In this document: positions 3,411-19,100 of the stretch, piece by piece
How positions within the stretch are numbered: the first letter of the stretch is position 1
How the letters are laid out: every line of letters starts with the position of its first letter
IMG/VR virus record: IMGVR_UViG_3300025769_000086
Strand: one strand, 5' to 3'
From: an uncultured virus (IMG/VR IMGVR_UViG_3300025769_000086)
Taxonomy: Duplodnaviria > Heunggongvirae > Uroviricota > Caudoviricetes
DNA: 20,000 nt
Position numbers and translations under genes: made by a program
Notes under the pieces: generated by a model
Told to the model about the DNA's origin: nothing
What the model saw: the letters and a program-made list of their open reading frames with translations, nothing else
The model's database searches: none

Positions 3411-3670
3411 ACTGTCACCTCCAAATGTGGTAATAACTTTTTCATTTCCGCAGTGAACTCTTCAACATAATCTCCACCCCAATAGTAATCACAATGTTTC
3501 AAAAGTCGTATGGTATCTTTTAGAAGTTTAGGGTTAGCCTTGCCACCCGTATCAACGGAAAATATAAACTCATCGTGTACTATGTTTGCCATTCTCTTAG
3601 GTGTACCATTGTAGGCCGTTAGTTGTAATAACATGAACTTCATTTCTTTTGACAATCTTATCTCGTTCAT
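3407..3670 (-). CDS. Hypothetical protein, 87 aa (start reassigned from 3691)
   Basis: ATG at 3670 follows GGGGGTGACAGC and overlaps the upstream stop; the protein ends EVTV*. Confidence 0.7.
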   Translation of the reverse strand: MNEIRLSKEMKFMLLQLTAYNGTPKRMANIVHDEFIFSVDTGGKANPKLLKDTIRLLKHCDYYWGGDYVEEFTAEMKKLLPHLEVTV

Positions 3671-4176
3671 GCTGTCACCCCCATCCACCAATCAGGCGGG
3701 CTTGTGTGTCTGTAATGCACACCACCTTTACTGTGTATTTTGCTGTGATAATAGGCACGATAGGCTTTGACTGCATCATCATCTTTGTACTCATCAGGCA
3801 TAGCCTGAGCGAACGGTGTGAGAGTAGCGTCAGGGATTATCTTCTGTATACCTATCATGTGATAGATAGCGTCAGTACATCTATGCATCTTGTTGAAGCG
3901 TTTGTAGTATTCCTCACATAACTGCATAGCATGATGAGCAAGCCACATCCAATTCTCTTGACTATCTCCTGCCCAAACTGTGCATGGGTGATGCTTGTAG
4001 CCACCCTTGTAGGGCGTGCCACTCTTAGTCAGTGGCATCTGCTTATCGGTAGCACCCCATCTGCGTAGGGCTGATGCCATCATCTGTGCTGACTCAACAA
4101 TCATCTTCGGCACTCGCACACAATCTATCGCTTGTGCTGCTTTTACAGGGTCATTATCTAATACAAATATATTCAT
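3667..4176 (-). CDS. Pyrimidine-dimer DNA glycosylase / endonuclease V family protein
   Basis: MNIFVLD..P..AAQ...KMIVESAQM...YK...HHPCTVW...NW.WL...TPFAQAMPDEYK..DAVKAYRAYY is the motif series of the phage Pyr_excise (DenV-related) family. Confidence 0.8.
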   Translation of the reverse strand: MNIFVLDNDPVKAAQAIDCVRVPKMIVESAQMMASALRRWGATDKQMPLTKSGTPYKGGYKHHPCTVWAGDSQENWMWLAHHAMQLCEEYYKRFNKMHRCTDAIYHMIGIQKIIPDATLTPFAQAMPDEYKDDDAVKAYRAYYHSKIHSKGGVHYRHTSPPDWWMGVTA

Positions 4177-5125: not shown

Positions 5126-5596
5126 TCACTCTTCCTCCTTGCGTACTGCTAATACAATACTTTTGATGTCACTTATTATTGATGAAACATCTTCAATAGA
5201 TACGAAATTACCGTACACTTGAGCCGCTAAGTCTGACATATCTATGTGTTTTGTTAATTCTTCATGGTCAATGAACTCTTCAAGTTGTGATACATCTATG
5301 TCTATGTCTACATTTTCTGCCACCGCATCATAGTCAATATATTGACCAAGGGTCTCATATTCTATCTTGTCTGCTAAAGTATAGTAATCAATTTCTAAGT
5401 GGTCAGCAATCTCACTCTCATTCATTTCACCAGCAATATCAGCAGGGTCAATACACATTGCTTCTGCTAATTTTTCATAATCAATATCTATATCATGTGC
5501 TACTTCGTAAAGCGTATCTTCAAATTTATTAATCAGTTCACTCATCTTCTTCATCATTCTTTCATCTATCTTTTTGTTTAACCATTTCATTATCAT
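5126..5596 (-). CDS. Acidic protein with ~9-aa tandem repeats (I-D-Y-x-x-L-A)
   Basis: 41 of 156 residues are D/E; repeats include IDYEKLA, IDPADIA, IDYYTLA, IEYETLG, IDYDAVA, IDHEELT and IDMSDLA. Confidence 0.75.
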   Translation of the reverse strand: MIMKWLNKKIDERMMKKMSELINKFEDTLYEVAHDIDIDYEKLAEAMCIDPADIAGEMNESEIADHLEIDYYTLADKIEYETLGQYIDYDAVAENVDIDIDVSQLEEFIDHEELTKHIDMSDLAAQVYGNFVSIEDVSSIISDIKSIVLAVRKEEE

Positions 5597-6040: not shown

Positions 6041-6058
6041 TAGACCTTTATATACTAA
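6041..6058 (-). promoter_or_regulatory. Conserved TATA-like promoter element TTAGTATATAAAGGTCTA
   Basis: Identical 18-mer at 6041, 12177 and 19083, always intergenic and just upstream of a minus-strand gene. Confidence 0.75.
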
Positions 6059-6059
6059 A

Positions 6060-7220
6060 TTACCAATCATTTAACTTCCTCTCTATTTTTTTTGTTTCCT
6101 TTCTACGTTCAATCACAACTTCAGTTGAGTATATACCATCATCTTCTATACTCACAAATGCAAGTGGTCTAATCCTATTAGTTATCTCACATTTGAATCG
6201 TCTGTCTTGCCATCTCATACCACCTTTTTCTATTCGTAACTGTTTAGGTTTTTCTTTCTCTATGATGTACATTTTACTGACACCATTGTGCATTTCAATT
6301 GGATGAAACATATCACCTGTTGCTTCACATTTTTCTGCGAACTCATCGTAGTTCTTATCATCCAAACTCATTTCACCTATCTCATGCATCACATCTATGT
6401 TACCGCATACACTACAAGGCAACTTAGCATCTGATACCTTATTAGTTCTGAATTCGTAGTGACCACAAACATCACACCAGTATAAGGCATAACCTTTGAT
6501 ATGAGTGTTAGGTATTGTCTTAGGTTTACCTTTGTCGCTAGTAAAATAATTCTTACCTACTTGTTTTTTCTTCTTACTTTTACTACCCACACTCTCTATC
6601 TCAATTTCATCAGCATCGAAAGAATCTACTTTTATGTTATCCCAATTAAATGATGTACCACTTGATAATGTTTCTACCTTATTTTCCCCAAATGGTATTT
6701 GACACACTGTTGATATGTACTCTTGTTGTGATTTGGCTTCTACTGCATGCGTACAATAACTGTTTCTTACCCATTGTATCAACTCACCTGCATCTTTCCA
6801 TGTTTGATTCTTCTTCTCAATCATAAGGTGTGCAAAGATAGCCAACTGTACACCAGTGCGACCATGACCACCCATGCATTGACAAGAGATAGATTTGATA
6901 CCTTTAGCCTTTACATCAGCAACAAGTGATACCCAAAACTCTCTACCTACGTTGCTAGGTATATCAAAATCAGGCCACTCTAACTCAATAATGTGTGGAG
7001 CATTCAACGATTGTACATGGTTGACACAAGTGAAACCATCAGGTATATTGTCAAAACTACGTGCAACACGGATGACACCTTGTGGACCAATTGCTAAGTC
7101 GGGTAGTGGTTTCATTTTCATCCAACCACCGTTACGTGTATTACCACCAGCATATACTCTTACACCATCAGTCGTTTCAAACACTAAAGGATTACCTGTA
7201 TGACAATTCATTTTATTCAT
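6060..7220 (-). CDS. Cys-based (PTP/dual-specificity) phosphatase with C-terminal zinc-ribbon extension
   Basis: CX5R loop CMGGHGRTG (C115-R121), WPDF acid loop, and AVEAKSQQEYI Q-loop-like segment; later CDVC...CSVC. Confidence 0.85.
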   Translation of the reverse strand: MNKMNCHTGNPLVFETTDGVRVYAGGNTRNGGWMKMKPLPDLAIGPQGVIRVARSFDNIPDGFTCVNHVQSLNAPHIIELEWPDFDIPSNVGREFWVSLVADVKAKGIKSISCQCMGGHGRTGVQLAIFAHLMIEKKNQTWKDAGELIQWVRNSYCTHAVEAKSQQEYISTVCQIPFGENKVETLSSGTSFNWDNIKVDSFDADEIEIESVGSKSKKKKQVGKNYFTSDKGKPKTIPNTHIKGYALYWCDVCGHYEFRTNKVSDAKLPCSVCGNIDVMHEIGEMSLDDKNYDEFAEKCEATGDMFHPIEMHNGVSKMYIIEKEKPKQLRIEKGGMRWQDRRFKCEITNRIRPLAFVSIEDDGIYSTEVVIERRKETKKIERKLNDW

Positions 7221-9622
7221 TCTAAATCACTTCCCGCTATTGTAGTAGTTACTTCATTCGTCCAATCCTCATCTGTGGCAATCTTTTTCTTGAGTTGCTT
7301 CTTCAACATACGAGCCAACACTTTGTACATTGGGTCTTCCTTGTCTAATCCATTCCAAGCCTCAACAAACATCATAGTATCTACATCATCGTATTGTTTT
7401 TGTTTTATCATTTGAGCCACCCTGTATGTAATAAGTTTCGATTTGTTGTGTTCTAGTGCAAAGAAAATCGAAGGTGCTTCATCAGCAAGCAACATAGAAC
7501 TAAGTTGATTATCCATTCCCAGTGACACTGTAATTATATCTTTTTCATCGCAAACAGTACAATCGTCATGACCACATGGTATGAAGTAATCATCATTCAA
7601 AGTGTACTTCGTATCGTGATGTAGCCATTTTGGGCCTAAAAGATTAGCAGTAACTTGCAAGGGTTTGTGTACTTGATTACCACAGATAGGTGTATGTTTG
7701 TAACTCATTGTTGATTTCTTCAACAAGTAATCAAACAATTCGTACCAATCATTCTCCGGTCTAGTCGTAGTAAATGTCTCTTCCAAGAATGTACGAGTCA
7801 CTTCATAAGTCTTGAACATTCTATTCAAATCTTTTTGCTCATGAGCAAACCAACCTACAACACTGTCTGATTCATTTAGTGTTCCGTAATCGAATGCTGT
7901 CTTCTCCAAGAATTTATTATACAAATTACCAGTGTTATGTGCATAGTTTTCTACTATGTTTGCAAGTGTAGTAACTTTTTGTATGTTAGATTCATTCTTA
8001 TCACTATTGAACTTTATAATCGCTGATGCTAAATCAGCAACACCAAAAGCACATTCAGCCCATTTTTTACCACCAAAATTCTTTTGCGGCCAACCAGTTT
8101 GGAATTGTTTACCACACCATCGTAATGCTTTTTCCATTTCCTCATATGTCAATTCGTAACCTTCCAATGCAAGATAATAGTGCTTACGGTCTTTACTAGG
8201 TGATACTTTATCATGAAGTTCAATGAACTTACTACTACCTATTGCTGCTACAATCGCTGGAGTAAACTCTATCGACATATCAGTCTTCATACCAAAAGCA
8301 TGTCTTAACTCACCAAAACATAAACCAACTGCTGACTTGACCAACCAACCACAAAATGCACCACTCAAATGTGCATTATGTTTGGGATTCATATTGAAAC
8401 CTGATAACCATTGGTGGAAATAATGTGCAAACCAACCTTGTTGCCTACGCCACTGTGTTCTGTTTCGTTCTAAACCATCAGCAAAAGCAGCAATATCATC
8501 AGGTAGATATGGATTGTATGGGTCAGGGTCAATTGGAAGTCCTTCTTCTTTAGCAACATGTGTAGGGCTACCTTCTACCCACACATCACCAACAGATACT
8601 TCAGCCACAATATAAGGTATACCATGTGACCTACAATGTGCATAAACATGGCTACCTAACGAACCATTAGGATGAGATATAACGAAGCCTTCAGGCATCT
8701 TATCCTTAGTGATGTTAGCCTCTAACCACGCTAGTTCTTCCAAACCTTCTGTTCTCCATACATCTTTGACATCTATCTTACCAACACCGTTGGGTACTGC
8801 ACCCATCTCTTTAGAAAGTGTTTCAACTGTTTTACCATCTATTAGTCTATTGTATACAAAAGGTGGACCACGAACTGTATGCGGTTCACTACCTCTTATC
8901 TGCGTTAGATGAGATGAACCATGACCATACATTTCTGTCAGATAGTTATCATCTTTCTGATACACATATTCTAATTCATATGTATTAGGTGCATGATGTA
9001 TGGTCTCAAAGTGTTTAGTGCATGACTTCTCATTTGGATTGAACAAGTAACACATCTTTACACCGTCCTTACCAGCAGTGATACCATCATGGTCACGACC
9101 AATCCAAGCATACACATTTGGTACAGCCACCATGCTAGATGTAGCAGGGATGAATGGTTGTAGTAACATGCAACCGTTTGGGTCTTCTTCTAACATTACA
9201 CCACGCAGGTAGTTCCATCTTTCTTCCAAGTTGCCCATTGAAACTTCTATGCTTTCCAAGACACCATGTCTAGGATTTTCTGGACAGGCTCTAAGAAAAC
9301 CTTTTTCCTCATCTAGTCTTTCAAAAGCACTCAATACAATATCATAATTATCTTGTAATAGTATCAGTTCAGTATTAGGTATCTTGTATTTACCTAGTCC
9401 TGACTTACATAAATCTACATAATTTAGGAAACTCTTAGCCTTTTGTGACCCAACTTGAGATGTACGTGAAGGATTTACTGTTCCTTTAATACTTGAGACT
9501 TTATTGATTGTCTCTTTAATCTCACTGTCTACTTTAACATCATCTTTTAGCACGTCAAATAAATCATTAAAATCCATTTCATCATATTCTTTATCCATCT
9601 TAGTTCTCTCCTGTTTGTTCAT
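7217..9622 (-). CDS. PEP-synthase/PPDK-like protein: ATP-grasp, phosphohistidine swivel and unknown C-terminal domains (start possibly 9598)
   Basis: Motifs appear in PPDK_N order: VGSQKA, KIP, FLRAC, LLQPFI..SSMV, G..DGITAG, ELEYV, LTQIR. GSLGSHVYAHCRSHGIPYIV then matches the PEP-utilizer mobile-domain signature GGxTSHxAIxARxxGIPxVV (His325). Confidence 0.7.
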   Translation of the reverse strand: MNKQERTKMDKEYDEMDFNDLFDVLKDDVKVDSEIKETINKVSSIKGTVNPSRTSQVGSQKAKSFLNYVDLCKSGLGKYKIPNTELILLQDNYDIVLSAFERLDEEKGFLRACPENPRHGVLESIEVSMGNLEERWNYLRGVMLEEDPNGCMLLQPFIPATSSMVAVPNVYAWIGRDHDGITAGKDGVKMCYLFNPNEKSCTKHFETIHHAPNTYELEYVYQKDDNYLTEMYGHGSSHLTQIRGSEPHTVRGPPFVYNRLIDGKTVETLSKEMGAVPNGVGKIDVKDVWRTEGLEELAWLEANITKDKMPEGFVISHPNGSLGSHVYAHCRSHGIPYIVAEVSVGDVWVEGSPTHVAKEEGLPIDPDPYNPYLPDDIAAFADGLERNRTQWRRQQGWFAHYFHQWLSGFNMNPKHNAHLSGAFCGWLVKSAVGLCFGELRHAFGMKTDMSIEFTPAIVAAIGSSKFIELHDKVSPSKDRKHYYLALEGYELTYEEMEKALRWCGKQFQTGWPQKNFGGKKWAECAFGVADLASAIIKFNSDKNESNIQKVTTLANIVENYAHNTGNLYNKFLEKTAFDYGTLNESDSVVGWFAHEQKDLNRMFKTYEVTRTFLEETFTTTRPENDWYELFDYLLKKSTMSYKHTPICGNQVHKPLQVTANLLGPKWLHHDTKYTLNDDYFIPCGHDDCTVCDEKDIITVSLGMDNQLSSMLLADEAPSIFFALEHNKSKLITYRVAQMIKQKQYDDVDTMMFVEAWNGLDKEDPMYKVLARMLKKQLKKKIATDEDWTNEVTTTIAGSDLE

Positions 9623-11306
9623 TCATTACATTATCTGCTGTATTTTTGAGTACCATCGGTACGATGTTCTGAATTTTCTCACTCCAACTAGAATCTATTC
9701 TACCTGTGGCGGTTATTTGTTTACATAAATCAAAGGCTTCATTCTGTTCAGTAGGATTACCAAACATAACCATCGTTTTCATTTCCTCTGCATTAGGTAA
9801 GTCTTCAGGATTTTTATCCCACTTCATCCTCACATCAACTTTTATCTCTCTAATAGTGATACCACTGCTATCTGCTGGTATCTCAATGTCTTCTTGACCA
9901 CTAGACAAATCCCATACTCTATTATTCAACTTAGCAACTGGCATTTTTGTTGCCATCTTTATAATCATGTCTCGATAGTATGCTGCTTCTTTTGCAGTAT
10001 TACAAATATAATCACCCAGTATTGTAGGACCAATACCTAAAGCATATACAGAACGTTGCTTAATAGGTCGCCATTCAAACTTAGCCATTTCATGACCATA
10101 TGATTGTTTACTACTGTACTTGACATATTTCCATCCATCACCACATCTACATATTGGTTTACCTGTGTCATCTTCTGATTCACCTGCCGCATAACAAATC
10201 CTACATGCAGTATCGTTTTCGTGTCTATTTTTACTATGAGTATCACTAACCCAAACAGATATCTCATTAAGCCAATCCCATCTGTTCCAACAATGTGTCG
10301 CTGTCTTACCACGACCATGCTTCTCGACAAGAGAACGACCATCCCAATTTTTCATACGATTCAACGATTCTTTGACATGTTTTATTACAGTCTCTTCAGG
10401 TATCATTTGTGCTGCTACACGTTTCACTCTATCAAATACAACAATTTGTGATTTCTTGAGTTGTTGTGTAAGATGTCTTGACCTGAATTGGTCGTTGTTC
10501 CAACCACTATGCACAACTGTACCTTTACCTCTGAACCATATTGTTTTCCAGTCACTACTTGAATCTGACTCCTTTACCATGTACCAATCTTCTTTCATAG
10601 GAGCGTCATGATGACTACAAAAACCATGATTTGGGTCATCTTCAGCAAAGCCACAAACACCTTTTGTCTGTCGTTTTATCATCTGAGTTTGTAAACCATC
10701 AAGAGAAAATAAGTCTGTACCATGTGTTTCACACAACCAATCAAACAGTTCAGGTAATGCACGAAGATGACAAAGTACAGTGTAGTTGGTCTTGTTAGGG
10801 TTGATTGACCATGATGGTTTGTCTTCTGTAAGTCTTACACTAAGCATTGACCTTATTTCTGATGGCATGTTTACTGAGTCATAAGATGGGTCATAAGGGC
10901 GACTCGATGCAGCAAAACACAGTATCTTTTTTCCGTTTGCATCATGATGATGACTGATATCAGGTAAATGATAATCGTAAGTATCTACTTCATCATGACC
11001 ACATGATACACTTAGTGGGTTAAGTAATTTACCGTAACCGACTGCACCCGTCATCATCACTGAAGCAATACGTGTATTCTGATTTACCATATCACTCCAC
11101 GTCAATTTCGCATTTGGTCCATGATTAGCAAGTGTATATGCCACTGCTGCATCGATAGGCCAACAAAGACCTAAAGTATCTCTAGTACGACCAAGTGTGT
11201 TATCTACTTCTATTGGATTATCAGTCCACAGCAAAGTCTCTTCAACTACACCAGCATCAATGAATCTTTTCCAACGATTTTGCCCTTGTCTTTCCGCTTT
11301 ACCCAT
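9600..11306 (-). CDS. Large hypothetical protein, 568 aa, with Cys/His clusters
   Basis: Long ORF with GGAGGT RBS; CGF...FCSHH and CRIC...CRC; family not recognised. Confidence 0.85.
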   Translation of the reverse strand: MGKAERQGQNRWKRFIDAGVVEETLLWTDNPIEVDNTLGRTRDTLGLCWPIDAAVAYTLANHGPNAKLTWSDMVNQNTRIASVMMTGAVGYGKLLNPLSVSCGHDEVDTYDYHLPDISHHHDANGKKILCFAASSRPYDPSYDSVNMPSEIRSMLSVRLTEDKPSWSINPNKTNYTVLCHLRALPELFDWLCETHGTDLFSLDGLQTQMIKRQTKGVCGFAEDDPNHGFCSHHDAPMKEDWYMVKESDSSSDWKTIWFRGKGTVVHSGWNNDQFRSRHLTQQLKKSQIVVFDRVKRVAAQMIPEETVIKHVKESLNRMKNWDGRSLVEKHGRGKTATHCWNRWDWLNEISVWVSDTHSKNRHENDTACRICYAAGESEDDTGKPICRCGDGWKYVKYSSKQSYGHEMAKFEWRPIKQRSVYALGIGPTILGDYICNTAKEAAYYRDMIIKMATKMPVAKLNNRVWDLSSGQEDIEIPADSSGITIREIKVDVRMKWDKNPEDLPNAEEMKTMVMFGNPTEQNEAFDLCKQITATGRIDSSWSEKIQNIVPMVLKNTADNVMNEQTGEN

Positions 11307-11307
11307 A

Positions 11308-11922
11308 TCAGTTACCTCCAGATGGTATCATAACAATGTCACTAACGTCATCTATATTCACATACTTTTTGTCCGTAATAACTTCAGTTAAACTCCCTGT
11401 AAGATATTCTTTATCTTGTATACCTGCATAATAACCCCTTGGTATACACGCTGGAATTGCTTCGTACACCGTTTCACCTTGTAGTGGTCCGTTCTGTAAA
11501 GTATAACTTCCGTTGTATGCATATGGATTATTCCAACGGAACTTTACAGGAACTAACTTAGTTTTGTCTATATCTTTTTGCTCAAACCACCAATGCATTT
11601 GACTTTGCATTTCATGTCTAAGCGGTGATGTGATTACATCTACTTCTAAGGCTATAACTCCATCAGTGGATTCTGCACCGAGTATGTTATCTTTCGTAAC
11701 TGTCTCTTGTTGTTGGTTCTGTAACCATTTGCGTTTTCCCCAACTTGCTATTCCATATATTTGCCCTGTCTCAGTGTGTTCCCAACCACCAGTCCATTGA
11801 CCATACCCATTTTGGCTACTACACTTGAACTGACGTTTTACGCCATCAGGACACTCAAAGGACTTGAGCGAACCTTCTTCCCATTCATCATTATCTATCT
11901 TATCACTTATATCTTCATTCAT
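11308..11922 (-). CDS. Hypothetical protein, 204 aa
   Basis: ORF with TAATG coupling and GAGGG RBS; W/G/Y-rich. Confidence 0.8.
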   Translation of the reverse strand: MNEDISDKIDNDEWEEGSLKSFECPDGVKRQFKCSSQNGYGQWTGGWEHTETGQIYGIASWGKRKWLQNQQQETVTKDNILGAESTDGVIALEVDVITSPLRHEMQSQMHWWFEQKDIDKTKLVPVKFRWNNPYAYNGSYTLQNGPLQGETVYEAIPACIPRGYYAGIQDKEYLTGSLTEVITDKKYVNIDDVSDIVMIPSGGN

Positions 11923-12161
11923 TATATTCCCTCTCCTGTTATTCTTGTTAACAACTTATGTAGTTCATCATTATCTCTTACATTAACAGCAAATATTGTA
12001 TCTGATACATGTATATCCACCACACCGCCATTATCACTACTCAAAGCCGACACATCAAATTGTACTGCTGTTATATCACTACGTCTAATTTTGGTGTGAT
12101 ATGTACTTTGATTTCTGTATGTTGTCACTTTTATCCATTTTTCTTTCTTAGTCTTCGACAT
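11922..12161 (-). CDS. Hypothetical protein, 79 aa (possibly leaderless)
   Basis: ATG lies 21 nt downstream of the TATATAAA box with no SD-like motif. Confidence 0.7.
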   Translation of the reverse strand: MSKTKKEKWIKVTTYRNQSTYHTKIRRSDITAVQFDVSALSSDNGGVVDIHVSDTIFAVNVRDNDELHKLLTRITGEGI

Positions 12162-12176
12162 GATTTCTTCTATTAC

Positions 12177-12194
12177 TAGACCTTTATATACTAA
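12177..12194 (-). promoter_or_regulatory. Conserved TATA-like promoter element
   Basis: Exact copy of the 18-mer with an A-rich tract upstream. Confidence 0.75.
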
Positions 12195-12237: not shown

Positions 12238-12251
12238 TTTATATACTAACT
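12238..12251 (-). promoter_or_regulatory. Second, partial promoter element (AGTTAGTATATAAA)
   Basis: Same 5' half as the 12177 copy, 55 nt upstream of it. Confidence 0.5.
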
Positions 12252-12318: not shown

Positions 12319-12350
12319 AAAAAAAAGGCGAGGGCTGTTAAGCCCCCGCC
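12319..12350 (-). terminator. Intrinsic hairpin plus U-tract terminator
   Basis: The minus strand reads GGCGGGGGCT-TAAC-AGCCCTCGCC-T8, a 10-bp stem with one G-U pair, 26 nt after the stop at 12377. Confidence 0.8.
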
Positions 12351-12932: not shown

Positions 12933-13064
12933 CTATGACTCCGCTTCAAAAAATTCTGCTATTTCATCTAAGCATTCTAATTCACGCAGCCAATAATTTA
13001 TTGTTTCTAAATCTGTTGCTTCTTGTATTGCTTTTATTATTGTATTTCTTATACTCTCATTCAT
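12933..13064 (-). CDS. Small hypothetical protein, 43 aa
   Basis: Manual translation MNESIRNTIIKAIQEATDLETINYWLRELECLDEIAEFFEAES*; overlaps the helicase stop, with an AGGAG RBS. Confidence 0.55.
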   Translation of the reverse strand: MNESIRNTIIKAIQEATDLETINYWLRELECLDEIAEFFEAES

Positions 13065-15738
13065 ATTTCTTCGCTCCTTTATCATCATCTTTGTCTTTAT
13101 TCTTGTAGTCATTTAGTATAGATTCTAACTGTGCCTTCTCCTTACCTGTGGCTGACTCAGCCATACCTGTCAGTATCTCCTCAATCACATTGACTCTATC
13201 AGATGCTTCTCCCCCATCGGTAATTGCTCTAAGCACTTCTCTCTTAGCCTCAATCACACGGTCAAAGTGTTGGTCAACAGTACCATCAACAGACAAGTAG
13301 ATAGCCCAACAAGTATCACCAGTAGCACCTATTCTATTCACTCTATTCTCCGCTTGTTCTTCCCAACCTGATACCCACTCACGCTCAATGAACACTGTGG
13401 TATCAGCAGCAGTAAGAGTAAGTCCTTCCTTCGCTGCTATGGTAGAGCAAAACAATACATCAACCTTACCTGCTTGAAAGCCTTCTACAATCTGTTGTCT
13501 CTTCTTACCCGGCGTTTCACCTGTAATCATATAGATATTAGTTCCACGATTTTTTAATCTGAAAGCATCACCACATTCTTTCAACACATCTCTATGATGT
13601 GCAAATACAATGATTGGTTTGTTGTTGTTCTGAAGTCTATATTCTTCTATGTATTCAACTGTGTTATCAACCTTTAAATGAGCACATTTCTTTCTCAAGT
13701 CAGTAAGCATGTTAAGAACGAAACCTGCTGGCATACCACCATGACTCTTATAATTTGCATACTGTTCAAACCATGATGATTGAACATCTTTGTATTCTCT
13801 CAATTGTTTTTTATCAGGTTGGACAGGTAGCATTGTTCTTACTTGGTCAGGTAGTTCAGGAAGAACTTCTTTCTTTAGTCTGCGTATCATAAAGTCTCTA
13901 GTTAATGCGTGTAACTCTTCTAGGTTACTAGCACCATTGACAACAAGATGACCCCAATCATTCTTGTGTGCATCACAATATCTGTACACATAATTCATCC
14001 ACTTACCTTTCCAATCAGCAGGTCTTACTAGACATAGTGAATTGTAAAACTCAACAGGTCTGTTAGGTATAGGAGTACCGGACATCAACACAATTGAATC
14101 AGATTGTTCTGCAACCTTTACACTACTCTTAGTTCTAGCAGCCTTGTGATTCTTTATGTAATGTGACTCGTCAAACACAACGATGTTATACCCACGCTCT
14201 AGTAAGTTACTCTCCTGTTTGTTCATCTTGTTGTAAGTGATGACTGTAAAGTCTACATCTTCTAATACATCATTACCTTTCTCAACTACTTGCACTGTAA
14301 CATTCTTAACCCAACTAAGTATTTCTTTTCTCCAATTGTATTGTACATTGGCAGGTGCAACAATAAGCACAGGCCATTGTTCAGGATGAAGTGCTGCGTA
14401 TGCTATGGCTTGTATTGTTTTACCAACACCCATGTCATCTCCAATGATGAATGCCCCGCCCGATAGTATGCCAAACTTTACACCTACGTACTGAAATGGA
14501 TATAACTTTTTACCTTCATGGAATACTTTAGATAACTTTTCTTCCATTTCTGTATGGTCATCAAGGCTCACTGCATTACTGATTGCTATCCTTTGTACCT
14601 TGTCTGTAAGGTATGACTCTACTTCAGGTATGGCTCGTATGGCTGCTGACAATGGGTGTTCATCTCCCAACAACTTCAACAAATCCAAAGACTTGTGCAA
14701 GGGTACATTCCATGCTTTGCTGTCTGCATCCCAACGTCTGTTTTCTTTTCCTAACTTCACAGATATAACATTCACAGTCTTAGCATCGTAAGGGAATGAT
14801 AACACAAGTCCACCTTTGATTAGTGTTGCTTTATATTCATCCGGTGATATCTCATCAACAACATTTAGTGCATCATCACAATCATGTAAGTATGCATGTA
14901 GTTCAGTGGTAATCCATCTTCCATTCAACACCCGTATCGCTTCTTCAATCACAGTTTTATCTCTCAACAAGTACATACTCTTAGTAGCAAAATCAAATTT
15001 GTAAGCATTCCTAAGACCCTCATACTGCCAACCAATACGCATTTTTAGTTCTCTATGAATCCTATTGTTCTCATCAAACCCATGATGTTCTAAGCGTAGT
15101 ATCAATACATTGTTATTATACTTGAAACCTTTTTGGCTTACACCTACATCATTGTGTGGTGTAACTGAAATTGTACGGTATATCTTTTCATCTTCAATTT
15201 GTTCAATCATAGCATCAATATACCTGTCAAGTATACCTAGTTCCTTTGCATCTCTCCTTGCCTGTTCAGCATCGAAGTTTATTATCTTTGATACATCTGC
15301 GTATTCAGGGTCTTGCACATCGTGTTTCTTCATGACTCTACGTGCCAATGTCCATTGTTCTTTTGCAATTTCTCTTTCGATACGTTTTTGTTCTCGCCTC
15401 GCTTCTCTTTCGATACGCTCTTGTTCTTCTTTGATTGCTATTGCTTTCTTACCAGCATCGCTGATTGCTTTCAATGCCTCAGACCAATTAACATTAGGTG
15501 GATAACCTGCAAGATGTTGTATGGTAGGTATTTGTGTGTTGATATATTTCTCCAACCTTTGTGCTAACTCTACGTATTGATATTCCTCTACTTTACCTGC
15601 ATCTACTACCTTTTGGAAGAATGGTGCATCAGGTTTGTTCGGCCCGATATCGTCTAGTTCATTCTCAACATGCACACCCATAAATGCTTTAATCATCCTG
15701 AACATATCTTTTGTGTTTGGTACAAATACTTCGCTCAT
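13057..15738 (-). CDS. SNF2-family ATPase, SMARCAL1/HARP-like (putative annealing helicase)
   Basis: LYPFQ, GDDMGVGKTIQAI (Walker A), DESH, SGTP..NRP.E, MIRRLKKEVLPELP, EGLTLTAA, QAENRVNRIG; a HARP-like segment (LSFPYD...RRWDADSKAWNVP) precedes the ATPase. Confidence 0.9.
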   Translation of the reverse strand: MSEVFVPNTKDMFRMIKAFMGVHVENELDDIGPNKPDAPFFQKVVDAGKVEEYQYVELAQRLEKYINTQIPTIQHLAGYPPNVNWSEALKAISDAGKKAIAIKEEQERIEREARREQKRIEREIAKEQWTLARRVMKKHDVQDPEYADVSKIINFDAEQARRDAKELGILDRYIDAMIEQIEDEKIYRTISVTPHNDVGVSQKGFKYNNNVLILRLEHHGFDENNRIHRELKMRIGWQYEGLRNAYKFDFATKSMYLLRDKTVIEEAIRVLNGRWITTELHAYLHDCDDALNVVDEISPDEYKATLIKGGLVLSFPYDAKTVNVISVKLGKENRRWDADSKAWNVPLHKSLDLLKLLGDEHPLSAAIRAIPEVESYLTDKVQRIAISNAVSLDDHTEMEEKLSKVFHEGKKLYPFQYVGVKFGILSGGAFIIGDDMGVGKTIQAIAYAALHPEQWPVLIVAPANVQYNWRKEILSWVKNVTVQVVEKGNDVLEDVDFTVITYNKMNKQESNLLERGYNIVVFDESHYIKNHKAARTKSSVKVAEQSDSIVLMSGTPIPNRPVEFYNSLCLVRPADWKGKWMNYVYRYCDAHKNDWGHLVVNGASNLEELHALTRDFMIRRLKKEVLPELPDQVRTMLPVQPDKKQLREYKDVQSSWFEQYANYKSHGGMPAGFVLNMLTDLRKKCAHLKVDNTVEYIEEYRLQNNNKPIIVFAHHRDVLKECGDAFRLKNRGTNIYMITGETPGKKRQQIVEGFQAGKVDVLFCSTIAAKEGLTLTAADTTVFIEREWVSGWEEQAENRVNRIGATGDTCWAIYLSVDGTVDQHFDRVIEAKREVLRAITDGGEASDRVNVIEEILTGMAESATGKEKAQLESILNDYKNKDKDDDKGAKKYE

Positions 15739-16109
15739 TCAATCCACCTGCCTTCATCGCCTCTAATTTGGTATGCTTCGTCAACATAAGACATCATTAT
15801 ATCTCGTAAGAGTTCAAGGTTAGGTTTCTCAACAGGTAAAACTTGACCCTCTTTTTCATTCTTGTAATATACTACATCATCTATCTTATCAAGTAGTCCT
15901 TGTAACCGCTTGACTTCTGCTAGGAGAAGTGGTGCGTCTGCTATGAGTTGTGCCGTTGCATCTGTTGGATTGGAGTACAAATCATAAGGCATCATCAACT
16001 GTACTATATCTTTACCATGTTTGTCTAAGAGTATACCACTCAGCGTTCCTAATTTCGTCCAATTCCAATCACCTTCTGCGTGTCCATCATACTTGCTTGT
16101 ATCAATCAT
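15735..16109 (-). CDS. MIDT-family paralog 1, 124 aa
   Basis: MIDTSKYDGHAEGDW...LIADAPLLLAEVKRL. Confidence 0.8.
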   Translation of the reverse strand: MIDTSKYDGHAEGDWNWTKLGTLSGILLDKHGKDIVQLMMPYDLYSNPTDATAQLIADAPLLLAEVKRLQGLLDKIDDVVYYKNEKEGQVLPVEKPNLELLRDIMMSYVDEAYQIRGDEGRWIE

Positions 16110-16411
16110 TCAATCACCTCAATGTTCTTTACTTCCCAATTGTATATGTCGTAGTCTTCCTTGTGACAATACTCACGCAGACTATCCACTTGCTTCTGTA
16201 ACCGCTTAACTTCTTCAAGGAGAAGCGGTGCGTCTGCCGCAAGTATAGCATCTTCTTTCATCCATTCAATCCATAAATGCCCATCAGATTTATCCATGAC
16301 AACCCAATGCTCACCTCCCCACATAACCCAAGCCTTGCCTTCTTCCATTTCTTCTTCCCTCGCATACCACGGCCCTTCTGTATGTCCTTCGTATTTATCT
16401 GTGTCAATCAT
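16106..16411 (-). CDS. MIDT-family paralog 2, 101 aa
   Basis: MIDTDKYEGHTEGPW...LAADAPLLLEEVKRL. Confidence 0.8.
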   Translation of the reverse strand: MIDTDKYEGHTEGPWYAREEEMEEGKAWVMWGGEHWVVMDKSDGHLWIEWMKEDAILAADAPLLLEEVKRLQKQVDSLREYCHKEDYDIYNWEVKNIEVIE

Positions 16412-16737
16412 TCAATCACCTTCCATCTGTAAAGTGTATCTTTACCCTTACTTCTTTTGATGCCGATTATACAATCAGTAAGTATAGCCCCGCCACCTTT
16501 ACTTCTTTTGTTGTGAAGAAGGATAGGGATTTTTACTTGACCGCCTGACCTACCAACCCTACCTGTAATACCATACCTATCGTTCCAAGACTTACCTGTT
16601 TTGGTATCACCGTAGTCTAAAACTACCCTAGTGTTGTTTGTTCGACAACGTTCCAAGACTCTAATGACTTCATCATCAGTTCTCTCGTCATAACTTGTTC
16701 CATTAACCAACTTGTATTTTGTAGACCATTTTTTCAT
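16408..16737 (-). CDS. Basic hypothetical protein, 109 aa, inserted in the array
   Basis: Unrelated to the MIDT family; ATGA-coupled on both sides and ends VIE* like paralog 2. Confidence 0.75.
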   Translation of the reverse strand: MKKWSTKYKLVNGTSYDERTDDEVIRVLERCRTNNTRVVLDYGDTKTGKSWNDRYGITGRVGRSGGQVKIPILLHNKRSKGGGAILTDCIIGIKRSKGKDTLYRWKVIE

Positions 16738-17030
16738 TCTTTCATCACCTCACAAAAGTTATTGAACCAATCAGTTCTATCTTCGTGATTACAATTTTCC
16801 CACACATCAACTGCTTGCTTTATCCATTCACGCAATCGTATGACTTCTGCTAAGAGAAGTGGTGCGTCTGCTATGAGTGCCGCATCCACTTCTTTGTCTA
16901 TTGAATCTCCACTTAGATGCCTTCCTGTGATTATGTAATTCTTGTATTTTCCTTTCAGTAGTATTGAATCCTCTTCGGGCCATTCCCACGGTGCAGGTGT
17001 GTGTCCTTCGTATTTGTCTGTGTCAATCAT
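16734..17030 (-). CDS. MIDT-family paralog 3, 98 aa
   Basis: MIDTDKYEGHTPAPW...LIADAPLLLAEVIRL. Confidence 0.8.
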   Translation of the reverse strand: MIDTDKYEGHTPAPWEWPEEDSILLKGKYKNYIITGRHLSGDSIDKEVDAALIADAPLLLAEVIRLREWIKQAVDVWENCNHEDRTDWFNNFCEVMKE

Positions 17031-17377: not shown

Positions 17378-17589
17378 TATTCTTCCCCCTTTATCAGTTC
17401 AGAATAAACAGAAAACCAATCCGAGCGACCTAATACATCTTCAGCCATCTCCAATCGGTATTCTGTTTCATCCAACTCTTCACGCAACCGCTTGAGTTCT
17501 GCGAGTATCTCTAACCCCAACGCCTGTAAAATGTCAGGGTGTGTGTCATCACCTTGTAGTATTTGTTCAGCCATGTCTGTGTCAATCAT
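17377..17589 (-). CDS. MIDT-family paralog 5 (short, divergent), 70 aa
   Basis: Retains only MIDTD and ILAELKRLREE. Confidence 0.7.
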   Translation of the reverse strand: MIDTDMAEQILQGDDTHPDILQALGLEILAELKRLREELDETEYRLEMAEDVLGRSDWFSVYSELIKGEE

Positions 17590-18530
17590 TCTTCCTCGCC
17601 TCCTAGTATCGCTGACAGTATGTAGTCAGCCGCTTTCTGTGCATCACCAAACGCTTTGTTCAATGCTTTGTCTTTATCTTTGCAAGCCTTGAGCCATGAC
17701 TGTAAGTATGCTACGTTGTTAGCATTCTCTTCGGCCACCAAGTCAGGCTTGAACTCACCACCAAGAGTAAGTGTAACAATCAATGAACCAAGTTCAGCAA
17801 TCAATTCCTCGTAGGCATACTCCGCCGAACCAAAGCGAGACTTGAGATTTCTATTTAGTCTTGTTGCATATCCAGTGGAGTGAACTGCCTCATGTATAGC
17901 GGTCATCACTTCACCCATGCTGTCAGCGAATGAATCATGTGGTGGTAGTACAATCTTATCATGTTCTGGTGAATAGTATGCTCTATCGCCACCTCTTGAG
18001 TAATCAAGATTGACTTGTGATGCTACGTATTCATCCATGTGTTCCATCATTTCTGATGTAGGTATTATCTCTTCAGCATTCTCAACAACGGGTGCAACAT
18101 AGTCCTCACATTGTTCAACACAAAACACTTCATAGAATCTAAGTGTACGACCATAGTGTTCTTCTTCCTCACCCTCGTCATTCTTCTTAGTGTACTTAGT
18201 AGGTTTGAAGAACTTGATGCTTACACCTGTACCATTCTTCAAGCCTTTGATTGACATTTTCTTAGCCATCAACTGCTTACGTGTAGCAAACCGTAGGTCA
18301 GTCCAACCATTAGTCATCGCTTCAATCCAAAGCATGACTAGATTACCACCACGATATGATTTCTTAGATACTAGATTGGATGGCATACTACTCTTACCAC
18401 CCTTCCATGGCTTACGCCAAGCCAAGTTCTCACCCTGTATCGCACTCTCTAGTTTCTTGAACCACTCATCGTTAGCAGTTTCTTTCTTCATCTTTGCATA
18501 TTGTTTCTTCTGTTGCATACTCATCGCCAT
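17586..18530 (-). CDS. ardC: ArdC-like ssDNA-binding antirestriction protein with zincin-like domain
   Basis: WRKPW...P.N..S...YRG.N...LW...FAT.KQ (ArdC N-domain), then RAYYSP..DKIVLP, HEAVH (HExxH), RLNR...FGS.EYAYEELIAELGS and AYLQSWL. Confidence 0.88.
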   Translation of the reverse strand: MAMSMQQKKQYAKMKKETANDEWFKKLESAIQGENLAWRKPWKGGKSSMPSNLVSKKSYRGGNLVMLWIEAMTNGWTDLRFATRKQLMAKKMSIKGLKNGTGVSIKFFKPTKYTKKNDEGEEEEHYGRTLRFYEVFCVEQCEDYVAPVVENAEEIIPTSEMMEHMDEYVASQVNLDYSRGGDRAYYSPEHDKIVLPPHDSFADSMGEVMTAIHEAVHSTGYATRLNRNLKSRFGSAEYAYEELIAELGSLIVTLTLGGEFKPDLVAEENANNVAYLQSWLKACKDKDKALNKAFGDAQKAADYILSAILGGEEE

Positions 18531-19082: not shown

Positions 19083-19100
19083 TAGACCTTTATATACTAA
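19083..19100 (-). promoter_or_regulatory. Conserved TATA-like promoter element
   Basis: Exact copy of the 18-mer TTAGTATATAAAGGTCTA. Confidence 0.75.

What the first reader, a model, noticed from the sequence alone, without database searches (positions are those of the whole stretch)
6060..12194. Promoter-bounded five-gene unit ending in a coupled dikinase-like enzyme and CX5R phosphatase: candidate viral phospho-writer/eraser system
Seen: genes of 79, 204, 568, 801 and 386 aa are abutting or overlapping and lie exactly between two copies of the 18-nt element (12177 and 6041). The 801-aa stop overlaps the phosphatase start (ATGA at 7217-7220). Known: ATP-grasp plus phosphohistidine enzymes (PEP synthase, PPDK, rifampin phosphotransferase, glucan water dikinase) transfer the beta-phosphate of ATP via His. 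In plant starch metabolism glucan water dikinase is opposed by the CX5R phosphatase SEX4. Inference: this virus may encode a reversible phosphorylation module for an unknown substrate (host protein, nucleotide signal, glycan or nucleic-acid end), with the three unknown genes as substrate or accessory factors. I do not know of a characterised viral system with this layout.
Basis: partly seen in the sequence, partly recalled or inferred. Interest (0 to 1): 0.82.

Follow-up and report, generated by a model that had tools for sequence, protein, structure and literature searches.

The report
Phage dikinase-like enzyme with phosphatase partner
Two overlapping genes in this uncultured phage encode an ATP-driven, histidine-relay phosphate-adding enzyme and a cysteine phosphatase, and this pair recurs side by side in about a hundred very different phage sequences, so it is an undescribed phage tool whose target is still unknown.

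Summary

The enzyme calls hold too. The 801-aa protein has a PPDK-type ATP-grasp domain, a swivel domain whose His325 is invariant in 131 of 131 relatives, and a new helical C-terminal domain. The 386-aa protein is a CX5R phosphatase with a WPD acid loop, a Q-loop and zinc ribbons.

The new result is synteny. Among 106 unique viral loci, baited with either gene, 101 have both genes on one strand within 1 kb. In 93 of these the phosphatase starts within 60 nt of, or overlaps, the dikinase end. Three exceptions sit at contig ends. In 52 distant loci no other gene family is shared by more than 5 loci.

So the functional unit is the two-gene cassette, not the five-gene unit:
- g79 and g204 occur only in close relatives.

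No Pfam, PHROG, NCBIfam or PADLOC model covers the dikinase. No cultured phage carries it, and nine literature searches found no description.

The substrate is unknown. I favour a shared phospho-cycle on a target outside the cassette (0.45). RNA or DNA end healing, independent targets, and a glycan cycle are rivals.

The parts
12327..12350 (-). Intrinsic terminator-like hairpin plus T-run, upstream of the unit
   Evidence: 10-pair stem with 8 G-C pairs, followed by TTTTTTTTAT. Sequence read.
12177..12194 (-). 18-nt element TTAGTATATAAAGGTCTA, 15 nt upstream of the g79 ATG. A partial copy of its core lies at 12238-12248. Presumed phage promoter; function not shown.
   Evidence: The 98%-identical relative L001 has the element at the same two places.
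11922..12161 (-). g79, 79 aa, unknown function, lineage-restricted
   Evidence: no family match. Homologues found only in loci from 3 contigs.
11308..11922 (-). g204, 204 aa, unknown function, lineage-restricted
   Evidence: no family match. Homologues found only in loci from 4 contigs.
9600..11306 (-). g568, 568 aa, clade-specific companion with Cys/His clusters and no clear fold match
   Evidence: Alignment A4. AlphaFold model with pLDDT 81. Only weak winged-helix-like matches, Z 6.4 or lower. Foldseek found nothing at E <= 1e-3. Present in 30 of 35 near loci, upstream or downstream of the pair, and in 33 of 104 unique phosphatase loci.
7217..9622 (-). Dikinase-like phosphotransferase: 801 aa as listed, probably 793 aa starting at ATG 9598
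8753..9487 (-). ATP-grasp nucleotide-binding domain (residues 46-290), PPDK_N-like. Motifs: Q60-K61, R111, E216-x-E218, Q241-x-R243.
   Evidence: VIA-align: PPDK 1dik Z 9.2, rmsd 3.4, 181 aligned (tied with biotin carboxylases); RPH 5fbs Z 8.4. ATP-grasp folds at Z 7-8. Motifs compared with E. coli PpsA, D318-I-E320 and Q334-A-R336. R111, E218 and R243 are invariant in 131 sequences.
8528..8752 (-). Phosphohistidine swivel domain (residues 291-365), motif GSLGSH325VYAHCRSHGIPYIV. The His325 codon is 8648-8650.
   Evidence: His325 is invariant in 131 of 131 sequences. hhalign places His325 on PpsA His421. The superfamily profile's top two PDB hits are PEP synthases, E 0.012 and 0.054. PPDK 2r82 and RPH 5hv1 align across grasp plus swivel.
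7220..8527 (-). New alpha-helical C-terminal domain (residues 366-801), the presumed acceptor-binding domain. Conserved H403, E438, R440, H441, R479, G517-G518, N555, H562, N563, K570, and a Cys cluster at 683-691.
   Evidence: No Pfam, PDB-sequence or Atlas match. It was not folded as a separate domain, so its fold novelty is untested.
6060..7220 (-). PTP-fold cysteine phosphatase with zinc-ribbon tail, 386 aa, its start overlapping the dikinase stop (ATGA)
6651..7220 (-). Phosphatase catalytic domain (residues 1-190): W82-P83-D84 acid loop, P-loop C115-M-G-G-H-G-R121-T, Q165-Q166 loop. The Cys115 codon is 6876-6878.
   Evidence: Invariant columns in A2. The profile hits classical PTPs, best 2pi7 at E 3.1e-5, with alignment across the WPD loop, P-loop and Q-loop. 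PHROG 17568 at 2.6e-16. Codons checked.
6321..6482 (-). CxxC...CxxC zinc-ribbon region of the phosphatase (residues 247-300), preceded by a Lys-rich linker
   Evidence: Zinc-ribbon Pfam hints in distant partners (Zn_ribbon_TFIIB, DZR).
6041..6058 (-). Second copy of the 18-nt element, 1 nt after the phosphatase stop and 31 nt before the g138 ATG
   Evidence: In most relatives this spacer is absent and g138 overlaps or abuts the phosphatase gene.
Invariant Q11, H22, Q24, R34, Y36, G37, S61, A63, Y69, N92, H93; acidic C-terminal tail.
   Evidence: Follows the phosphatase in 34 of 35 near loci; the exception is cut by the contig end. Alignment A3. No PDB or Pfam match. Present in 46 of 104 unique phosphatase loci.

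Best explanation
The core of the finding is a self-contained, phage-specific two-gene cassette.

Gene 1 (801 aa) is a divergent dikinase-type phosphotransferase. Its ATP-grasp domain binds ATP. His325 on a swivel domain picks up phosphate and carries it to an acceptor held by a new helical C-terminal domain. By analogy with water dikinases, the reaction would be ATP + acceptor-OH + H2O -> AMP + Pi + acceptor-O-P.

Gene 2 (386 aa), translationally coupled to gene 1, is an active Cys115/Arg121/Asp84 phosphatase with zinc ribbons. It hydrolyses a phosphomonoester.

Because the pair travels alone between unrelated phages, its target is not encoded in the cassette. The target must be a host component or a universal molecule.

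I think the two enzymes most likely work on the same target or pathway, as a phosphorylate-then-dephosphorylate cycle, during early host take-over or counter-defence. In the window's ~100-kb phage clade, g138 and g568 would be added adaptors or substrates.

Shown: the folds, the motifs, the invariance of the catalytic residues, and the near-obligate adjacency.

Inferred: the chemistry, the shared target, and the timing.
For: Enzyme 1.
- ATP-grasp fold: PPDK 1dik Z 9.2, rmsd 3.4, 181 aligned; RPH 5fbs Z 8.4; PEP synthase 2ols Z 7.6. ATP-grasp matches at Z 7-8.
- The top Foldseek PDB hit is RPH 5hv1, E 2.8e-3.
- The top BFVD hit is Bacillus phage G gp139, E 5.7e-4. Its record annotates it as pyruvate phosphate dikinase.
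- PPDK_N-type motifs line up with E. coli PpsA.
- The swivel motif aligns His325 with PpsA His421.
- A profile of 131 relatives ranks two PEP synthases first in the PDB, E 0.012 and 0.054, in register over the QxR motif and the catalytic His.
- His325, R111, E218 and R243 are invariant in 131 of 131 sequences.

Enzyme 2.
- C115, R121 and D84 are invariant and Q165-Q166 conserved in 24 sequences.
- 22 of the 25 PDB sequences with E <= 1 are tyrosine phosphatases, best at 3.1e-5.
- 45 of 46 distant partners hit PTP-type Pfam families, and 24 of 46 pass the PF22784 cut-off.
- A CxGGHGR[TS]-type P-loop is present in about 103 of 106 unique partners.

Linkage.
- 35 of 35 near loci.
- 51 of 52 distant short-form loci.
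- 5 of 5 long-form loci.
- 56 of 57 phosphatase-baited loci.
- Overall, 101 of 106 unique loci have both genes on one strand within 1 kb, 93 of them within 60 nt or overlapping.
- Only these two families are shared among the 52 distant loci: 50 and 49 loci, against 5 or fewer for any other family.

Context. ArdC-like, SNF2 helicase and DenV-like genes lie in the window. In other phages the neighbours are mostly small ORFs with no PHROG match.
Against: - There is no biochemical evidence.
- Sequence-level membership in the Pfam dikinase families is sub-threshold. The window protein has no hit. PEP-utilizers is matched by 1 of 56 homologues at E <= 1e-3 and by 5 of 44 at E <= 0.1.
- The ATP-grasp Z-scores are tied with biotin carboxylases, so the fold alone does not single out dikinases.
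- Two opposing enzymes made together could amount to a futile cycle. Nothing here shows that they share a substrate.
- The C-terminal domain has no recognisable ligand site.
- The domains are not basic: the C-domain has a median pI of 6.9 and the phosphatase tail 6.5. This gives no support for a nucleic-acid target, and none for any other.
Confidence: 0.45

Rival explanations
1. Nucleic-acid end healing. The dikinase-like enzyme phosphorylates 5'-OH ends and the phosphatase removes 3'-phosphates. RNA, or DNA, cut by host anticodon nucleases or toxins could then be resealed. This would be a non-homologous analogue of T4 Pnkp.
For: - A kinase and a phosphatase acting on different ends avoid a futile cycle.
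- The best Pfam family for distant partners is PF22784, the phosphatase domain of the 'Swiss Army Knife' protein. A jumbo-phage survey places that protein family among RNA-repair phosphatases (PMC7824862, passages seen).
- An invariant acid Asp84 fits an alcohol leaving group (the chemistry is recalled).
- The phosphatase carries zinc ribbons and a Lys-rich linker.
- In locus L057 an Rnl1-type RNA ligase gene abuts the pair.
- An ATP-dependent DNA ligase lies about 3 kb upstream of the pair in one complete relative.
Against: - Rnl1, Rnl2 and RtcB families were found in 0 of 5 near-complete (95-100%) genomes of the window's clade. The Rnl1 control rang in no genome, so that one result is weak.
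- Only 1 locus shows a ligase next to the pair: 1 of the 141 flanking proteins scanned and 1 of the 94 loci then held.
- All known polynucleotide kinases are P-loop enzymes (recalled).
- No domain is basic.
Confidence: 0.15
2. Two co-transferred but separate weapons. The dikinase inactivates a small molecule by phosphorylation, as rifampin phosphotransferase does to rifampin. Candidates are a host immune signal or an antibiotic-like metabolite. The phosphatase independently strips phosphates from host proteins, for example in kinase-based defence or signalling.
For: - Characterised relatives with non-TIM acceptor domains act on small molecules. These are RPH (PMC4844700, abstract seen) and HpeHI (PMC12167813, abstract start seen).
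- The phosphatase profile matches classical tyrosine phosphatases best.
- The cassette sits among accessory or early-type genes.
Against: - Independent functions do not explain near-obligate adjacency in both directions of baiting.
- They do not explain the frequent 4-nt start/stop overlap.
- They do not explain why neither gene was found alone away from contig ends.
Confidence: 0.15
3. The phosphatase acts on the dikinase itself. It could reset a phosphorylated residue of the enzyme as a regulator or safety catch. Alternatively its Cys115 could accept phosphate from His325 as the next step of a relay.
For: - Stoichiometric co-translation is implied by the overlapping stop and start.
- No third conserved component exists.
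- Earlier AI notes of this scan report dikinase modules paired with various phosphatases in ultra-small bacteria and archaea. These are unchecked leads.
Against: - The conserved Q165-Q166 loop and Asp84 are the equipment of a hydrolase acting on O-phosphomonoesters, not of a relay (mechanism recalled).
- No interaction test could be run.
Confidence: 0.1
4. A glycan phosphorylation cycle like plant GWD/PWD with SEX4/LSF2. It would act on host glycogen or a surface polysaccharide to aid its breakdown.
For:
- The enzyme classes match.
Against: - No carbohydrate-binding module or glycoside hydrolase signal appears in either protein.
- None appears among the flanking genes scanned.
- The domain order differs from GWD (recalled).
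- The phosphatase carries zinc ribbons rather than a CBM.
Confidence: 0.05

Closest known systems
PEP synthase / pyruvate phosphate dikinase (EC 2.7.9.2 / 2.7.9.1)
   Same: - N-terminal PPDK-type ATP-grasp, then a swivel domain with catalytic His in a G-x-x-S/T-H-A-x-x-A/C-R...IP motif, then an acceptor domain.
- His325 aligns with E. coli PpsA His421.
- The [DE]xE and QxR motifs are shared.
- PEP synthases are the top PDB sequence hits of the family profile.
   Different: - The C-terminal domain is helical, not the PEP/pyruvate TIM barrel.
- No Pfam PPDK_N or PEP-utilizers_C match.
- Found almost only on viral contigs.
- Always paired with a phosphatase.
Rifampin phosphotransferase and small-molecule dikinases (phenylphosphate synthase, HpeHI, CreHI)
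   Same: - ATP-grasp plus swivel His with a family-specific, non-TIM acceptor domain.
- RPH is the top Foldseek PDB hit and aligns at Z 7.6-8.4.
   Different: - RPH has the order grasp, acceptor, swivel (PMC4844700 abstract names the three domains; their order is recalled). Here the order is grasp, swivel, acceptor.
- The acceptor domain is unrelated as far as tested.
- Those enzymes have no obligate phosphatase partner (recalled).
Glucan water dikinase with SEX4/LSF2 phosphatases (plant starch turnover)
   Same: It works alike at the level of logic: a dikinase and a CX5R phosphatase cooperating on one substrate.
   Different: - No carbohydrate-binding modules.
- Different domain order.
- Phage context.
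- No evidence for a glycan substrate.
Classical and dual-specificity Cys phosphatases, including the PF22784 PTP-SAK domain
   Same: - C(X)5R P-loop, WPD-type acid loop and Q-loop.
- The profile hits PTPRO/CRYP-2.
- Distant partners pass the PF22784 cut-off.
   Different: - Distinct P-loop C-x-G-G-H-G-R-T.
- Conserved N-terminal C6-H7-x-x-N10 motif.
- Zinc-ribbon extensions.
- The window protein itself is below every Pfam cut-off.
T4 polynucleotide kinase-phosphatase (Pnkp) with Rnl1
   Same: A phage-encoded kinase plus phosphatase. One locus has an Rnl1-like ligase next to the pair.
   Different: - Pnkp is one protein with a P-loop kinase and a HAD-type phosphatase (recalled). Here there are two proteins with unrelated folds.
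- No RNA ligase in 5 of 5 complete clade genomes.

Membership tests
Dikinase / PEP-utilising enzyme superfamily (PPDK, PEPS, RPH, GWD) | PPDK_N-type ATP-grasp nucleotide-binding domain | tested here: met
   Fold: 1dik Z 9.2, rmsd 3.4, 181 aligned; 5fbs Z 8.4; 2ols Z 7.6. These are tied with other ATP-grasp enzymes. Motifs K61, R111, E216xE218 and Q241xR243 parallel PpsA. The Pfam PF01326 model itself is not matched.
Dikinase / PEP-utilising enzyme superfamily (PPDK, PEPS, RPH, GWD) | Swivel domain with conserved phospho-accepting His | tested here: met
   His325 is invariant in 131 of 131 sequences. It aligns to PpsA His421. The profile hits PEP synthases across this motif, E 0.012. Pfam PF00391 is only sub-threshold: 1 of 56 and 5 of 44.
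Dikinase / PEP-utilising enzyme superfamily (PPDK, PEPS, RPH, GWD) | ATP -> AMP with beta-phosphate passed via His to the acceptor | not testable with these tools
   Needs labelled-ATP assays.
PEP synthase / PPDK proper | C-terminal PEP/pyruvate-binding TIM barrel (PF02896) | tested here: not met
   Residues 366-801 are modelled as all-helical. No Pfam hit. No PDB sequence hit.
Rifampin phosphotransferase | Domain order grasp, rifampin-binding domain, C-terminal swivel | tested here: not met
   The swivel lies at residues 291-365, between the grasp and the C-domain. The RPH match covers only model residues 48-361.
GWD/SEX4-type glycan phosphorylation system | Carbohydrate-binding modules on the dikinase and/or the phosphatase | tested here: not met
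   No CBM family at E <= 0.1 in either window protein, nor at E <= 0.01 in 46 partner phosphatases.
Cys-based protein tyrosine / dual-specificity phosphatase superfamily | C(X)5R P-loop with catalytic Cys and Arg | tested here: met
   C115 and R121 are invariant in 24 sequences. A CxGGHGR[TS]-type loop is present in about 103 of 106 unique partners.
Cys-based protein tyrosine / dual-specificity phosphatase superfamily | General-acid Asp loop and overall PTP fold | tested here: inconclusive
   W82-P83-D84 are conserved. WPD or FPD is present in 80 of 106 partners by a simple pattern. The profile aligns WPD loop, P-loop and Q-loop to 2pi7 at E 3.1e-5. No structure of this protein was predicted. 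The window protein scores 18.8 bits against the Pfam cut-off of 20.9.
T4 Pnkp-type end-healing enzymes | P-loop polynucleotide kinase plus HAD phosphatase, used together with an RNA ligase | tested here: not met
   The folds differ. RNA ligase families were found in 0 of 5 complete clade genomes. A ligase is adjacent in 1 locus only.

The most novel reading that the evidence does not exclude
The cassette is a new kind of macromolecule-modifying writer/eraser pair. A phage 'macromolecular dikinase' would use a phospho-histidine swivel to phosphorylate a hydroxyl on a host protein or on a nucleic acid. Tyrosine is a natural candidate: it is a phenol, like the substrates of several small-molecule dikinases, and the partner looks like a classical tyrosine phosphatase. 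The dedicated phosphatase would tune or reverse the mark. In the window's clade, g138, with its invariant Tyr36 and Tyr69, would serve as a built-in substrate or adaptor. This would be a protein- or polymer-kinase chemistry with no known precedent outside glucan dikinases.
Probability: 0.12. Interest if true: 0.9.

Novelty: new variant of a known kind. Interest (0 to 1): 0.72.

Why it matters
The dikinase family is large: 788 cluster representatives at 50% identity match at E <= 1e-3. It appears to be found mainly in viruses. It is invisible to Pfam, PHROGs, NCBIfam and PADLOC, and no cultured phage carries it.

A two-gene module that moves intact between unrelated phages usually marks a portable host-manipulation or counter-defence function. 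Finding its target could reveal a new phosphorylation-based step in phage-host conflict. It would also give a new acceptor specificity for the dikinase mechanism.

The pair is small, self-contained and easy to express, so the question can be tested directly.

Tried and rejected
Family and database searches.
- The dikinase, g568, g204, g79 and g138 have no match in Pfam, PHROGs, NCBIfam or PADLOC. 56 distant dikinase homologues gave one sub-threshold Pfam hit.
- Megablast and tblastn of the window genes against 50,697 phage records found nothing. A distant homologue, P0127, hit only 4 uncultured records annotated as hypothetical.
- The ESM Atlas gave no usable hit for the dikinase C-domain, and only scores of 0.87 or lower for g568.

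Structure searches.
- g568 gave no Foldseek match at E <= 1e-3 and only winged-helix-like bits at Z 6.4 or lower. I draw no function from this.
- g138 and g568 profiles hit nothing in the PDB. Relaxed Pfam scans of their families gave only scattered single hits.
- The long-form N- and C-terminal extensions had no PDB sequence hit.

Distribution and fusions.
- A search for fused, longer forms of the dikinase found none, which is weak evidence. No phosphatase domain is fused within the 203 collected proteins.
- The genome-contig scan returned only 2 relatives, both on MAG contigs. One is the same phage lineage. The other is a partial gene, again followed by the phosphatase. The scan used a single peptide pattern, so absence from cellular genomes is only weakly supported.

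Hypotheses checked.
- DNA hypermodification through a hydroxymethyl-pyrimidine route: thymidylate-synthase-type genes were found in 0 of 5 complete clade genomes.
- A T7-type RNA polymerase to explain the 18-nt element: 0 of 5, but the control rang nowhere, so this is uninformative.

Tools and sources not available.
The window's own genome is not held.

Literature.
- Nine searches found no description of a phage dikinase-phosphatase pair.
- Burroughs and Aravind 2016 (NAR 44:8525), which defines the 'Swiss Army Knife' protein, is not held. What I say about it comes from the citing passage in PMC7824862 and from recall.

Full report
**1. The observation**

The window is phage-like and every long ORF is on the minus strand. 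They abut or overlap. The 801-aa stop and the 386-aa start share ATGA at 7217-7220.

The 18-mer TTAGTATATAAAGGTCTA is exact at 12177-12194 and 6041-6058, and also at 19083-19100. None of 200 shuffles reached 3 matches. Partial copies of its core lie about 40-55 nt upstream at two of the three sites.

A strong terminator precedes the unit at 12350-12327. None follows the 386-aa gene. In the 98%-identical relative L001 the element sits at the same two places. It was not found with this exact core in the other 92 loci held at that point.

The 801-aa ORF probably starts at ATG 9598, which has an AGGAG upstream and would give 793 aa.

**2. What the 801-aa protein is**

It matches no model in Pfam, PHROGs, NCBIfam or PADLOC and no PDB sequence. 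It does have many relatives:
- 56 proteins in the 5.8-billion-sequence set, none with a precomputed Pfam domain.
- 788 representatives at E <= 1e-3 in the 50%-clustered library, of which 324 are at E <= 1e-10.

An AlphaFold model built on 43 sequences (pLDDT 84) shows three parts: an alpha/beta N-terminal half, a small beta-rich domain around residue 325, and an all-helical C-terminal half.

Residues about 46-250 align to ATP-grasp enzymes. PPDK 1dik is at the top (Z 9.2, rmsd 3.4, 181 aligned), tied with biotin carboxylases. RPH 5fbs scores Z 8.4 and PEP synthase 2ols Z 7.6. PPDK 2r82 and RPH 5hv1 align over model residues 48-361, that is grasp plus swivel, with high rmsd as expected for mobile domains. 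The top Foldseek PDB hit is RPH at E 2.8e-3. The top viral hit is Bacillus phage G gp139 at E 5.7e-4, which its record annotates as pyruvate phosphate dikinase.

The sequence motifs agree with this:
- Q60-K61, R111, E216-x-E218 and Q241-x-R243 parallel the GGK, VRSSA, D318-I-E320 and Q334-A-R336 motifs of E. coli PpsA.
- GSLGSH325VYAHCRSHGIPYIV matches the PEP-utilizer swivel signature. hhalign places His325 on PpsA His421.
- In 131 diverse relatives R111, P114, G120, T182, E218, R243, H325, E438 and R440 are invariant.
- A profile of those 131 sequences ranks two PEP synthases first in the PDB, at E 0.012 and 0.054. The alignment is in register from the ExE/QxR region to the catalytic His.

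Pfam's own PEP-utilizers model is reached only below threshold: 1 of 56 homologues and 5 of 44 at E <= 0.1.

I conclude that this is a divergent member of the dikinase superfamily, with the PPDK/PEPS domain order. Its acceptor domain (residues 366-801) is not the TIM barrel and has no match so far. Conserved H403, E438, R440, H441, R479, GG517-518, N555, H562, N563 and K570 are candidates for its active site.

**3. What the 386-aa protein is**

Residues 1-190 are strongly conserved. The invariant positions include W82-P83-D84, C115-x-G-G-H-G-R121-T and Q165-Q166.

A profile of 24 homologues hits classical tyrosine phosphatases. The best is 2pi7 at E 3.1e-5, and 22 of the 25 sequences at E <= 1 are tyrosine phosphatases. 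The alignment runs through the WPD loop, the P-loop and the Q-loop.

The window protein is just below Pfam's cut-off, at 18.8 bits against 20.9. It hits PHROG 17568 at 2.6e-16, a family labelled 'thymidylate synthase'; the phosphatase motifs above do not fit that label.

Of 46 distant partner proteins, 45 hit PTP-type families, and 24 pass the cut-off of PF22784, 'Swiss Army Knife protein, DSP-PTPase domain'. A CxGGHGR[TS]-type P-loop is present in about 103 of 106 unique partners.

After a Lys-rich linker the protein carries CxxC zinc ribbons. In distant partners the ribbons may lie on the N-terminal side instead.

**4. Synteny, the main result**

I baited viral contigs with four different queries:
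- Near relatives of the 801-aa protein, 30-98% identical: all 35 loci have the phosphatase gene directly after the dikinase gene. 34 of 35 then have a 138-aa gene; the exception is cut by the contig end. 30 of 35 have a g568 homologue within the flank, either upstream or downstream.
- A distant short-form group, 550-700 aa and about 25% identical to the window protein: 51 of 52 loci have the phosphatase next to the dikinase. The exception ends at the contig edge.
- Long forms of 1200-1400 aa: 5 of 5 loci.
- The phosphatase as bait: 56 of 57 new loci have a dikinase-like ORF directly upstream. The exception is at a contig end.

After removing duplicates by dikinase ORF sequence, 106 loci remain:
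- 93 have the order dikinase then phosphatase on one strand, with 60 nt or less between the open frames, or an overlap.
- 7 have a gap of 61-1000 nt.
- 1 has the reverse order.
- 2 are farther apart or on opposite strands.
- 3 are truncated by contig ends.

Many junctions are 4-nt overlaps like the one in the window.

When the flanks of the 52 distant loci are clustered, only the dikinase (50 loci) and the phosphatase (49 loci) are shared. The next family is in 5 loci. The flanking genes are mostly small ORFs with no PHROG match.

A partial, very distant copy on a high-GC MAG contig is also followed by the phosphatase, with an 8-nt overlap.

The unit of function and of transfer is therefore the two-gene cassette. 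g79 and g204 occur on only 3 and 4 contigs. g138 and g568 are companions in one large clade, present at 46 and 33 of 104 unique phosphatase loci within the fetched flanks. In some members the order is phosphatase, g568, g138.

**5. How it probably works**

Shown:
- two catalytically intact enzymes of known mechanistic classes;
- invariant catalytic residues;
- near-obligate coupling of the two genes;
- no third conserved gene.

Inferred: ATP is bound by the grasp domain. His325 is phosphorylated and swings to the helical domain, where E438, R440, R479, H562 and K570 would bind and activate an acceptor hydroxyl. The partner then hydrolyses a phosphomonoester through Cys115, with Asp84 as the acid and Gln165/166 positioning water.

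Because the pair moves alone between phages whose contigs range from 16 to 447 kb, the target must be a host component or a universal molecule.

I favour a shared target or pathway (0.45), because independent functions would not keep two genes overlapping across this much divergence. The location points to an early host-takeover or counter-defence role. ArdC-like, SNF2 helicase and DenV-like genes and an acidic repeat protein lie nearby in the window, and small unknown ORFs flank the pair elsewhere. This role is not demonstrated.

**6. Rivals**

*End healing (0.15).* This would be a 5'-kinase plus a 3'-phosphatase.
- In its favour: it removes the futile-cycle problem. It fits the PF22784 link to a family placed in RNA repair (PMC7824862, passages seen). 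It fits the zinc ribbons and one adjacent Rnl1-like ligase.
- Against it: Rnl1, Rnl2 and RtcB were absent from 5 of 5 near-complete clade genomes (the Rnl1 control did not ring, so that result is weak). No domain is basic.

*Independent targets (0.15).* This fits the small-molecule habit of RPH-like enzymes. It does not fit the tight coupling of the two genes.

*Phosphatase acting on the dikinase (0.1).* Regulation of, or a relay through, the phosphatase cannot be excluded.

*A GWD/SEX4-like glycan cycle (0.05).* No carbohydrate-binding signal was found.

**7. Novelty**

Nine literature searches found no description of such a pair. No cultured phage in 50,697 records carries the dikinase.

Earlier AI notes of this scan describe dikinase modules with other kinds of phosphatase partner in ultra-small bacteria and archaea. 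Those are unchecked. They suggest that pairing a dikinase with a phosphatase may be a wider theme.

I rate the cassette a new variant of a known kind: a known catalytic machinery, with a new acceptor domain, a new obligate partner and a new viral niche.

**8. Limits**

- All relatives come from metagenomic contigs, and the hosts are unknown.
- The acceptor domain was not folded on its own.
- Complex prediction and read mapping were not available.
- The window's own genome is not held.
- The scan of cellular genomes used a single peptide pattern.

Noticed in passing
window 5126-5596 (-): A 156-aa, very acidic protein with a repeated I-D-Y/x-x-x-L-A-type motif roughly every 11-12 residues and a C-terminal EEE. 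It looks like a possible DNA mimic or anti-restriction protein. Homologues were found in only 10 loci.
   Followed up: partly
window 17586-18530 (-): An ArdC-like anti-restriction protein: ArdcN plus a zincin MPTase-PolyVal domain (PHROG 7245 at 2.8e-57). It is conserved near the cassette in many clade members.
   Followed up: partly
window 13057-15738 (-): An 893-aa SNF2-family helicase with an N-terminal extension of about 370 aa that has no family match. It is conserved upstream of the cassette in the clade.
   Followed up: no
window 16106-16411 and 16734-17030 (-): Two small neighbouring genes that both match PHROG 1273, so probably paralogues. A PHROG 17487 gene lies between them.
   Followed up: no
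window 3667-4176 (-): A DenV-like pyrimidine-dimer DNA glycosylase (Pyr_excise; PHROG 624 at 7e-55). It is conserved in many related loci.
   Followed up: no
window 9596-9622 (-): Two candidate starts for the dikinase gene. ATG 9598 has an AGGAG Shine-Dalgarno and would give 793 aa, as in database homologues. ATG 9622 has none.
   Followed up: yes
L057 4883-5983 (+): An Rnl1-type RNA ligase (PHROG 562 at 6.7e-52) directly abuts the dikinase-phosphatase pair in this one distant phage contig. A peptide deformylase gene follows the pair.
   Followed up: partly
L089 2561-4527 (-): Two tandem paralogues of the phosphatase on the strand opposite the dikinase gene. This is the only locus with that arrangement.
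   Followed up: no
records behind L006, L008, L025, L034 (G004, G005, G007, G008): Giant ORFs of about 1800-1890 aa with a weak ATP-dependent-ligase-like nucleotidyltransferase segment in four near-complete clade genomes. G004 also has a regular 379-aa DNA ligase about 3 kb upstream of the cassette.
   Followed up: no
L091-L093, between dikinase and phosphatase: In three long-form loci a gap of about 0.8 kb, probably one extra small gene, separates the two cassette genes.
   Followed up: no
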